DNA of 64,000 bases from Malacoraja senta (Eukaryota), in assembly GCA_038087875.1 (NCBI GenBank), contig CM075994.1, positions 1,366,001 to 1,430,000 of the forward strand. Direction: 5' to 3'. The notes beneath the pieces are model-generated. The model did no database searches and was not told where the DNA came from. It worked only from the letters and a program-made list of their open reading frames with translations. How positions within the stretch are numbered: position 1 is the first letter of the stretch; every line of letters begins with the position of its first letter. Shown one piece after another: positions 20,276-22,765 of this stretch. Both the position numbers and the translations under genes were made by a program.

Positions 20276-22765
20276 TGTAATGGTCATTTGGCCTGTTTTG
20301 CATGTCATTGATGATGGCATGTGCCTTTACATTTTAGACTGCCCGTTATATTGTGGGTGGGATTTATGACGTGTTTTGGGCATGTTTGGAGCTTAGATGC
20401 TTGCGCAGAAGTTGAGTTTTTAGATTAGTTTGGAGAGACGATGGGAACGGTTAACCCTTCTATCATGCGGAACATGGCAGATCTTGTCAGTGTTACGGAG
20501 ACACGAGGAGTTTTCTAATGTCTAAAGTAATAAGCTGGAGTTCGAAGAATGTTTTAGTAGCGAGTCGGAAGAAACTTGGATGTATCTCACTATTTTCTAT
20601 CAACAATAAAGCATTTATTCATCAAAAGACTGTGTTTTGAAACCATATCTGAGAAGAAGCTCTAAAGGTCTCTGTGAGTGAGCTAGCATGCGTTCAGAAG
20701 ACACCCCCTTCAACCCTTCTCATCCAAATAGTGGCTACGGTGCTAATTACCTGAAAGATATGAAAGTCTGCCGTTACATTAAGTAGAAGGGTACCTCCGG
20801 CAGGGGGGTTAAATACCAGTCCCAGAGAGAGGGACAGAAGATTAAATCGAAGCATGACGACCAGGCTAAAGTCTCGGAGAGGTTTAGCCAGAAGAAGACT
20901 GGTTCCAGTCGTGGAACTGAAGAAACTACCAGTCCCAGAGATTGGGACAGAAGATTGGCTAAGATTCTCGGAGAGGTTTTAGCCAGAAGAAAGTGGTTCC
21001 AGGAGGAACTAGATCTCGGCCAGAGAAGGGCCTTGTGGTCTATCTACAGCATCGAGACGTATCTGAAGACGTATCACAGGATTTGTGAGTACAAATCGAT
21101 TATTGCTCTTTGAATTGAAATCACGGCATTATTTTTAAAGACTTCTGTAACAGAGCCACCAGGATGTGTTTTCTCCAGCTTGTCTGGGGAAAGCAGACCG
21201 ACCTTGGATTGTTTTGAATCGCTTGTGATAAGTGAATTAGTATCATTCGTTTTGCACCTGGAGTTAGAGAGGTTCTCTACATTATCAGTATGTTATCATT
21301 TTGAAAGGAATGTTGACAAAACAAAGCCACAGCCACTAGCAGAGACTCTTGTTCGATTAATTTAAAGACTTGGCAATCTGCCAAGACCTCTTTAAAATCA
21401 TGAATTTAGAAATTGAAGAAAGAGCTATGGCAGAAGAACCACGTGGTGGTGAAGAAAGTCCCAGCCAACTTAAAGAAACAGATATTTCACTAGCTGCCTG
21501 TTTGTGAGAAACCAAGAGAGAGAGAGAAACGAATTATGGTTACAGGTTAACAGATTAATTAATACACAGAAAAAACTAATGGAATCAGAACAGAACGTGA
21601 TCAAGGTGAAATCTAATATGAGCCAACTATGGAACCTCATCCAGAAGGTTGGCAAGAAACAAGATGTACTGCTGTGTTCAGAGCCGTCTTGGGAAGAACG
21701 CAGAAGACATACCTAGTGGAATGAAGATAAGAAGAAGAAATGCAATCGTTTCATGAAAAAGGCAGAGAAGTGGTTATCTGAAATTATGTCACAAGTTACG
21801 AGCTTAGTAGCTGGAAGTGCGAAGCAACAAGGTGCTAGAATGGAAGATGAAAATTCAAGCAGTGAACAGTTCATATGATGAGTCTCCTGCGAAAGTCAAA
21901 GTACAACAAGGTTTGTACAGTGCTGTACCACCTCCCAAAGTTCAGAATGGAAAAGCAGGCGTGATCAAGAAGAAACTAGCCGCAGGAGTGAGTAAAATGG
22001 AAATCAGTGACTTGTCAGACGAGGCAACCCTAAAACCAGCACAACAATTGCACAGAGGAAAGCTGACCCCACGCTGGCCAAGGCGGCTGCTGCCGCTTAG
22101 AAGCCTGCGGCCAAGAAGGCCAGTACCAGCTCGGACAGCGAGTCCGATTCTGAAAGTACTGAAGAATCTTCAAGCGATGAAGAGCCTAAGTTGAAGACCC
22201 CTGTAACCCAACTACGAATGGTAAAGGCCAAGCCGTCATTACTGCCTGCAAAGTCTGTGGCCAAAAATGCCGACAGCAGCAGCAGATGCTGCAGTAGCAG
22301 CTCAGATAGTTCAGGATATAAATCTGGTTCTTCAGCCAGTTCGGTTTCGAGGGCTTCTGCTCGATTGGGAGCTAAAGCTGAGCTAGCTGCTCTCTCAATA
22401 GAAGCAGATGCCACAAAGAAGGAAACTGAATCGGATAGAAACAAGTTCTGGCAGAGGATTAGAAGGCTACTTGAAAGTGTGAAGGTAGCTATGGAATCAG
22501 ATGCTAACCTGGTAAATGTGGAGGATAAATTACGCCTGATACGTAGCCTTAATAATGAGCTTAAAGAAAAGCAGGACACACTGCTGGAAGCAGAGCGATC
22601 TCAAGGGGAACGTGAAAGACATTAGTGATATTCAGAAAATACAGAGTATTATGATGAATCCATGGAAGTTGCGGAAACATGGTTAGCTGAAGTTGACCAA
22701 AGTGAATGTTACTGAAAAGGAGATGCTAAGCAAGCAGAAGAAGAAGATGATGATGATATTGCACT
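20276..22765 (+). mobile_element. Degenerate BEL/Pao-type LTR retrotransposon: putative 5' LTR (20276-20778) plus gag region, truncated by CR1
   Basis: The LTR-like unit is bounded by TGTAATGG..CCGTTACA (near-perfect inverted termini) with an AATAAA at ~20605. The gag-like translation includes SSASSVSRASARLGAKAELAAL and two helical repeats ending in F/M..AE.WL.E. No 3' LTR is seen. Confidence 0.6.

What the first reader, a model, noticed from the sequence alone, without database searches (positions are those of the whole stretch)
21840..22400. NOLC1/Nopp140-like coding fragment apparently captured inside a BEL/Pao gag
Seen: between two gag-like helical repeats lies an intronless stretch of alternating Ser/acidic and Lys/Pro/Ala blocks: EDENSSSE..SSYDESPAKVKVQQGLYSAVPPPK.., AKAAAA*KPAAKKASTSSDSESDSESTEESSSDEEPKLKTP..PAKSVAKNADSSS..SSSSDSS. 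It runs in frame into the BEL-like SSASSVSRASARLGAKAELAAL. Established (from recall): NOLC1 has this alternating architecture and a GPYSSVPPP-like motif. Inference: an LTR element transduced a nucleolar phosphoprotein mRNA segment into gag, which might give it nucleolar or condensate targeting.
Basis: partly seen in the sequence, partly recalled or inferred. Interest (0 to 1): 0.7.

Follow-up and report, generated by a model that had tools for sequence, protein, structure and literature searches.

The report
Host gene piece inside retrotransposon gag
In what looks like a skate genome, a jumping gene copied a piece of a host gene (probably the nucleolar protein NOLC1) into its own gag gene and spread with it; this copy is dead, and such capture is a known process.

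Summary
The flanks are BEL/Pao gag: 68% identical to little-skate proteins with DUF1759. The insert is 21853-22310. Contigs that skip it occur in 4 of 4 runs laid. In both RNA-like runs, long contigs match only the insert (88-91%) and run on into other sequence at both ends, so the donor is a host transcript. Insert-bearing copies occur in DNA of two other organisms; one contig bridges the 3' junction, and some are several-fold deeper than the single-copy-like donor contig. Sense orientation, no poly(A), 4 shared bases at the 3' junction and a replaced gag linker fit LTR template-switch capture (PMC5131818). NOLC1 as donor is likely (about 0.85) but rests on architecture and by-eye motif comparison: no search returned a NOLC1 protein. 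This copy has two frameshifts and a stop in the insert and loses the rest of gag at a LINE. Both junctions keep the serine frame, so a Gag-NOLC1 fusion could once have been made; nothing shows selection or nucleolar targeting. New member of a known kind.

The parts
20276..20830 (+). LTR-like high-copy segment; left end at TGT 20276, AATAAA at 20605; right end not fixed (about 20700-20830)
   Evidence: summed depth 2.5e4-6e5 in DNA runs; loose ends before 20276 in X18 (3 reads, agreement 0.59) and X20 (1 read).. No second copy in the window.
20811..21399 (+). Leader with a short internal duplication (20811-20918 / 20924-21010, 72%); primer-binding site not identified
21400..21852 (+). BEL/Pao gag N-terminus, first helical unit, broken by stops and a frameshift
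   Evidence: tblastn of P0002: residues 3-42 on 21409-21525 (50%), residues 35-144 on 21504-21866 (31%)
21853..22310 (+). Captured host transcript fragment, NOLC1/Nopp140-like: acidic-serine blocks with K/A/P spacers. At least three transcript pieces (to about 21960; 21955-22160; 22155-22314). Frameshifts near 21866 and 22039, stop at 22098-22100
   Evidence: tables 2, 5, 7, 8
22311..22314 (+). Four bases shared by both parents at the 3' switch point
   Evidence: insert-free contigs resume at 22311; transcript contigs match up to 22314
22311..22424 (+). gag resumes: Ser linker and AKAELAAL helix (P0002 162-198)
   Evidence: P0002 158-206 on 22299-22445, 80%; residue indices
22419..22767 (+). 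Second gag N-terminal helical unit: the sequence jumps back to P0002 residue 36, in frame. Closer to P0002 than the first unit
   Evidence: P0002 36-171, 58% including run-on into the LINE; 68%
22768..23830 (+). 5'-truncated LINE (CR1-type by recall) at which the element ends; no further gag, zinc knuckle or protease match in the window
   Evidence: 16 further matches in the window at 68-87%; weak RVT_1, E 0.13

Best explanation
A BEL/Pao LTR retrotransposon of a skate-like fish co-packaged a host mRNA, most likely NOLC1. During reverse transcription the enzyme switched to the mRNA and back, putting about three acidic-serine repeats into the Ser/acidic linker of gag in place of a short gag stretch. 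The chimeric element was copied again and exists in several copies in related species, most likely moved by intact helpers with the fragment as a passenger. The window holds one decayed, LINE-truncated copy. Shown: gag identity, insert limits, insert-free form, host-transcript origin, presence in other organisms. Inferred: template switching, NOLC1 identity, re-amplification, neutrality.
For:: flank hits P0002 (E 2e-35) and P0003 (E 2e-30), both with DUF1759; P0002 also has two CCHC and one CHHH-type knuckle and a weak aspartyl-protease hit (E 0.007); joint 21852->22311 in 4 of 4 runs (shorter sides 26, 80, 27, 57 letters). Depth over the insert falls in DNA runs (X1 189-1462 vs about 13,000 in the adjoining bins; X3 599-2089 vs 192,000 and 43,000) and rises in RNA-like runs (X18 494-569 vs 129 and 110; X20 43-61 vs 11.5 and 5.5). 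X18 record 14 (2193 nt) and X20 record 20 (1866 nt) match only insert pieces at 88-91%, with loose ends of 255+ letters before 21866 and after 22314. The 5' loose letters match 21854-21865, placing the switch at about 21853. X3 record 29 (1109 nt, depth 43) matches only 22155-22314: a single-copy-like donor locus. X1 record 6 bridges the 3' junction (241 and 47 letters). X3 records 27 and 28 have depth 354 and 279, and up to 16 X1 contigs cover 22222. At 21914 and 21992 none of the X3 depth (922, 2652) carries the transcript's letter. No poly(A) or target-site duplication. About 14 residues of P0002 (148-161) have no counterpart. These match the features given in PMC5131818 (passages): partial mRNA, replaced ORF segment, microsimilarity, further cycles. 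Architecture as described for Nopp140 (PMC12951762 passages; PMC2133063 passages). By eye, block openings resemble human NOLC1 peptides (KKASSSDSE, KADSSSS...EEEK, KSSSSEDS) more than TCOF1 peptides (mostly K-P/R-E-E-D/E-S) in PMC11427299 supplement 11.
Against: No search returned NOLC1: 0 of 29 candidates; 0 of 5926; 0 hits at E<=0.001 in 1.84 billion; nothing; histone H2B tails at E>=0.077. The transcript contigs' own sequence beyond 30 letters was not shown, so LisH and SRP40_C domains could not be checked. X18 is labelled 'RNA? (probably DNA)' and X20 'RNA?'. Contig depth is not a copy number. The only contig seen across the 5' junction (X1, depth 126; inferred from its end distances) extends 28-29 letters into gag, under the 31 the tool asks; X3 shows no cover at 21867-21874. 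Letters between the sides of the empty joint are 'not known', so replacement rests on P0002, which is only 31% identical to the first unit. X1 record 6 (depth 33) may be the orthologous locus rather than a separate copy. At 21914 both X1 contigs carry the transcript's letter. Only 40 of 606 variant rows, 15 of 47 joints, 24 of 704 loose ends and 32 of 6105 pieces were shown.
Confidence: 0.72

Rival explanations
1. Adaptive capture: an insert-bearing subfamily made a Gag carrying NOLC1 repeats and gained from it (CK2-phosphorylated repeats binding snoRNP or nucleolar proteins, or aiding particle condensation).
For: Both junctions join gag to the insert in the serine-coding frame. The transcript and most other laid copies differ from this copy at its three breaks (tables 3, 4). 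Two differences from the transcript are multiples of three: a 405-letter skip and 15 extra letters. One Nopp140 repeat suffices to bind NOP58 in vitro (PMC12951762); the repeat domain is needed for nucleolar and coiled-body targeting (PMC2133063).
Against: In-register recombination between serine repeats, exon skipping and triplet slippage give multiples of three without selection (inference). The middle piece differs by 25 letters net, which includes this copy's frameshift, so it cannot be counted. At the stop, X3 depth 354 of 861 lacks the transcript's letter, equal to record 27's depth, so a deep subfamily may share the stop and have spread without coding (letter not shown). No intact insert-bearing gag among the 2 proteins found. 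Particles of this family are assumed to form in the cytoplasm (PMC8742986).
Confidence: 0.1
2. Same capture, but the donor is another Ser/acidic-Lys/Ala/Pro gene (TCOF1/treacle or a lineage-specific paralogue).
For: No alignment to a NOLC1 protein was obtained. Low-complexity blocks resemble each other across such proteins.
Against: No Pfam Treacle hit. Block openings differ from the TCOF1 peptides seen (18 distinct sites).
Confidence: 0.11
3. Not template switching: a LINE-made NOLC1 retrocopy or a DNA-level fragment landed in an existing BEL copy; the deep contigs are separate pseudogenes or segmental copies.
For: LINEs are abundant in the window. Exon-junction spanning was not shown. Only one listed contig fully bridges a junction.
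Against: Internal fragment, no poly(A), no target-site duplication; gag linker missing; 4-base overlap at the 3' end; deep X3 contigs lack the transcript's letter at 21914 and 21992, as this copy does.
Confidence: 0.06
4. The block is gag's own Ser-rich linker expanded by slippage, or an assembly artefact.
For: The gag linker is itself Ser/acidic. The window's own sample was not among the runs laid (best holder 0.33 of words).
Against: 88-91% match to non-element contigs in two other organisms; the 3' junction exists in a third.
Confidence: 0.01

Closest known systems
LTR-mediated retroposition in animals (PMC5131818; abstract, passages and section 8 read)
   Same: Partial mRNA inside an LTR element, part of the ORF replaced, microsimilarity, no poly(A) or target-site duplication, further copying. 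BEL/Pao carriers are named there (BATUMI in fly, BEL18_AG in mosquito).
   Different: Cartilaginous fish were not among its six species. Here the cargo is a disordered repeat segment joined to gag in frame at both ends, and present in several species.
Crocodilian ERV capture of KIT-ligand and nectin3 mRNA (PMC4299795; passages read)
   Same: Host mRNA carried by a multi-copy LTR lineage shared between species.
   Different: Those are retroviruses with near-complete separate ORFs, and KIT-ligand shows purifying selection. Here the piece is 458 nt inside gag and selection is untested.
Little-skate BEL/Pao gag XP_055520958.1 (P0002) and XP_055487690.1 (P0003)
   Same: N-terminal helical unit and SGSSASSVSRASARLGAKAELAAL linker.
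   Different: One helical unit, no insert, intact linker 148-161, and they continue into DUF1759 and zinc knuckles.
NOLC1/Nopp140 repeat domain
   Same: Acidic-serine blocks separated by K/A/P-rich basic stretches; similar block openings.
   Different: Three to four partly eroded blocks instead of ten; no termini; frame broken in this copy.

Membership tests
BEL/Pao (Belpaoviridae) element | Gag homologous to BEL gag (DUF1759, three zinc knuckles) | tested here: met
   Flanks align to P0002/P0003, which carry DUF1759 above cut-off. The domain itself is lost from this copy; Pfam gives no gag hit on the window pieces. DUF1759 as a BEL marker is recalled.
BEL/Pao (Belpaoviridae) element | Two LTRs of 0.2-1.2 kb | tested here: inconclusive
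   One LTR-like segment from 20276; no second copy in the window; element truncated.
BEL/Pao (Belpaoviridae) element | tRNA-Arg/Gly primer-binding site and polypurine tract | not tested
   LTR end not fixed; feature from PMC8742986.
BEL/Pao (Belpaoviridae) element | pol with PR-RT-RH-IN order; RT phylogeny | not testable with these tools
   No protease-region match in the window; no genome held; P0002 ends before RT.
LTR-mediated retrocopy | Same element on both sides, discontinuous, part of ORF replaced | tested here: met
   Joint in 4 of 4 runs; P0002 148-161 missing. Exact replaced length not known.
LTR-mediated retrocopy | Microsimilarity at switch points | tested here: inconclusive
   4 shared bases at the 3' end; imperfect likeness by eye at the 5' end; no chance control run.
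LTR-mediated retrocopy | No poly(A), no target-site duplication | tested here: met
LTR-mediated retrocopy | Spans exon junctions of the donor | not testable with these tools
   Insert is collinear with transcript-like contigs, with at most 15 extra letters per listed piece, but the donor gene's structure was not available.
NOLC1/Nopp140 (as donor) | Alternating acidic-serine and basic K/A/P stretches | tested here: met
   shuffles; definition
NOLC1/Nopp140 (as donor) | Significant alignment to a NOLC1 orthologue | tested here: inconclusive
   No hit; short, diverged, low-complexity queries make these weak negatives. By-eye likeness only.
NOLC1/Nopp140 (as donor) | LisH N-terminus and conserved C-terminus in the donor transcript | not testable with these tools
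   Only 30 letters of each loose end are shown.
TCOF1/treacle (as donor) | Treacle repeat (Pfam family recalled as PF03546) | tested here: not met
   No such hit at E<=1 or E<=10.

The most novel reading that the evidence does not exclude
A skate BEL/Pao subfamily acquired NOLC1's phosphorylated condensate repeats as an in-frame part of Gag and spread because of it: a retrotransposon borrowing a host nucleolar address or scaffold segment.
Probability: 0.1. Interest if true: 0.8.

Novelty: new member of a known kind. Interest (0 to 1): 0.42.

Why it matters
It extends LTR template-switch capture to a cartilaginous fish and gives a case with both parents and the re-amplified chimera visible across species. 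The junction can serve as a lineage marker. If natural copies show selection on the fused frame, it would be a rare case of a transposon Gag gaining a host condensate segment. As it stands the copy is a fossil.

Tried and rejected
No genome held, so no copy census. Protein searches with insert pieces found nothing; histone H2B tail matches (E>=0.077) rejected as compositional. ESM Atlas: no usable hit, or 0.80-0.81 unnamed clusters. Metagenome scans: 0 of 573 and 0 of 598 stretches confirmed. No RNA holder on record was listed; 4 of 23 listed runs were laid. Motif searches in papers and supplements found nothing; one file in PMC11427299 was unreadable, PMC9943641's supplements were unavailable, and bioRxiv supplements are closed; any of these might hold the motif. 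Literature searches for a prior report: NOLC1+retrotransposon+captured (8 papers, none on this by listing); BEL Pao/LTR/cartilaginous/skate (9, listing only); 0; 3; 15 of 27 listed. Earlier scan findings: none. No tRNA in the window. No fold or complex job was sent: the insert is disordered and the gag identity was already settled.

Full report
Setting. The window is repeat-rich vertebrate DNA with many LINE pieces and tandem arrays. No genome is held. The closest named proteins are from the little skate, so a skate or ray is inferred.

Observation. The quoted peptides are present but in two frames: frameshifts near 21866 and 22039, and a stop at 22098-22100. One open frame, 22101-22622, runs from the last insert piece into gag. 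The S/D/E versus K/R/A/P block pattern exceeds shuffles in the insert (0 and 19 of 5000) and not in the flanks (1045 and 1636 of 5000). The two helical units are homologous (116 vs 27 +/- 5; 0 of 2000 shuffles).

The flanks are BEL/Pao gag. Searching 22329-22718 gave 2 hits among 1468 candidates, P0002 and P0003, at 68% and 67%. Both carry DUF1759; P0002 also has a weak aspartyl-protease hit and three knuckle motifs. tblastn maps P0002 3-42, 35-144, 158-206 and again 36-171 onto the window, and nothing further. The layout is: LTR-like segment from 20276, leader, gag N-terminus, insert, gag linker, a second N-terminal unit from a closer relative of P0002, then a LINE from about 22768 where the element ends. 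The second unit is joined in frame; recombination between two BEL variants is my inference. X18 record 9 shows a form with one unit only.

The insert is foreign. Four of 23 listed runs were laid at 80% likeness. A joint 21852->22311 occurs in all four, so insert-free elements exist; two of the four have a shorter side under 30 letters. Depth drops 10- to 100-fold over the insert in the DNA runs and rises 4- to 10-fold in the RNA-like runs. There, contigs of 2193 and 1866 nt match only insert pieces at 88-91% and continue for 255+ letters on both sides. The 3' continuation reads as EEEKPKGK and the 5' one as a serine-acidic block whose letters also match 21854-21865. A 1109-nt DNA contig of depth 43 matches only 22155-22314, as a single-copy gene would. 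The runs' RNA status is the tool's guess, contigs show no strand or level, and only part of each table was printed (40 of 606, 12 of 137, 15 of 47, 24 of 704, 32 of 6105 rows).

The chimera is not private to this locus. X1 record 6 bridges the 3' junction (241 and 47 letters, 90%), though it may be the orthologue. An X1 contig of depth 126 appears to reach 28-29 letters into gag at the 5' side, short of the tool's 31. X3 records 27 and 28 are 6-8 times deeper than the donor-like contig, and up to 16 X1 contigs cover 22222. Deep X3 contigs lack the transcript's letter at 21914 and 21992, as this copy does, which points to one clade of captured copies. Depth is no copy number, so 'several to tens of copies' is a hint only.

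Mechanism. Sense orientation, an internal fragment, no poly(A) or target-site duplication, about 14 gag residues missing and four bases shared at the 3' switch fit the double template switch described in PMC5131818 (abstract, passages, section 8), which includes BEL/Pao carriers and secondary copying. The insert lacks 405 letters of the transcript between two serine blocks: a further switch, a later deletion, or a shorter isoform.

Donor. Nopp140 has ten acidic-serine repeats of about 16 residues with K/A/P spacers of about 32 (PMC12951762 passages). The insert has a 21-residue block, which spans the 405-letter skip, and a 29-residue spacer without acidic residues (read). Block openings resemble human NOLC1 peptides rather than TCOF1 peptides in PMC11427299 supplement 11 (32 of 81 NOLC1 and 30 of 44 TCOF1 places seen; by eye). 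All protein searches for the donor were blank. I put NOLC1 at about 0.85.

Function. Both junctions keep the serine frame, and the transcript and most other laid copies differ from this copy at its breaks, so a fusion protein may once have been made. A single repeat can bind snoRNP tails, and the repeat domain directs nucleolar targeting (PMC2133063 passages). Against this: frame keeping is expected from switching between serine-codon repeats; a deep X3 contig may share the stop; no intact insert-bearing gag was found; and assembly is assumed cytoplasmic (PMC8742986, whole text). A passenger is the likeliest reading.

Comparison and verdict. It works like, and on the features tested belongs with, LTR-mediated retrocopies; the crocodilian ERV captures (PMC4299795 passages) are the nearest vertebrate multi-copy case. 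The searches (listings only) showed no report of this instance; the library lacks most subscription papers and no repeat database was searched. New member of a known kind; interest 0.42; adaptive reading probability 0.1, interest 0.8 if true.

Noticed in passing
window 3108-6848 (+) and 55257-56726 (+): Intronless ORFs with stonustoxin-like domains (Thioredoxin_11, Stonustoxin_helical, fn3); the first also has a weak MACPF_SNTX hit and an AIG1/septin-like GTPase domain. Probably a tandem fish immune/toxin-like gene family; the second is shorter.
   Followed up: no
P0003 (XP_055487690.1): Named 'golgin subfamily A member 6-like protein 7' by its source, but it is a BEL/Pao gag with DUF1759: a mis-annotation.
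   Followed up: yes
window 22419-22425: In-frame jump from gag residue about 198 back to residue 36 of a second BEL variant; no listed contig bridges it with 31 letters on both sides.
   Followed up: partly
window 25374-25528 (+): Exon-like stretch between AG and GT encoding a coiled-coil-like peptide that changes frame midway: the element may sit in an intron of a gene or pseudogene.
   Followed up: partly
window 26756-29224 (-): Broken ORFs of a second LINE type with a reverse transcriptase hit (RVT_1, E 2.6e-10 at 28580-29224).
   Followed up: no
window 20271-20278 and 20701-20708: GGGGGTGT at the left LTR end and ACACCCCC about 430 nt on form a short inverted pair; may mark an LTR end or be chance.
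   Followed up: no
window 35937-36524 (+): ORF with GDSL-lipase/OSK-like hit, as in LINE ORF1 esterase domains (recall).
   Followed up: no
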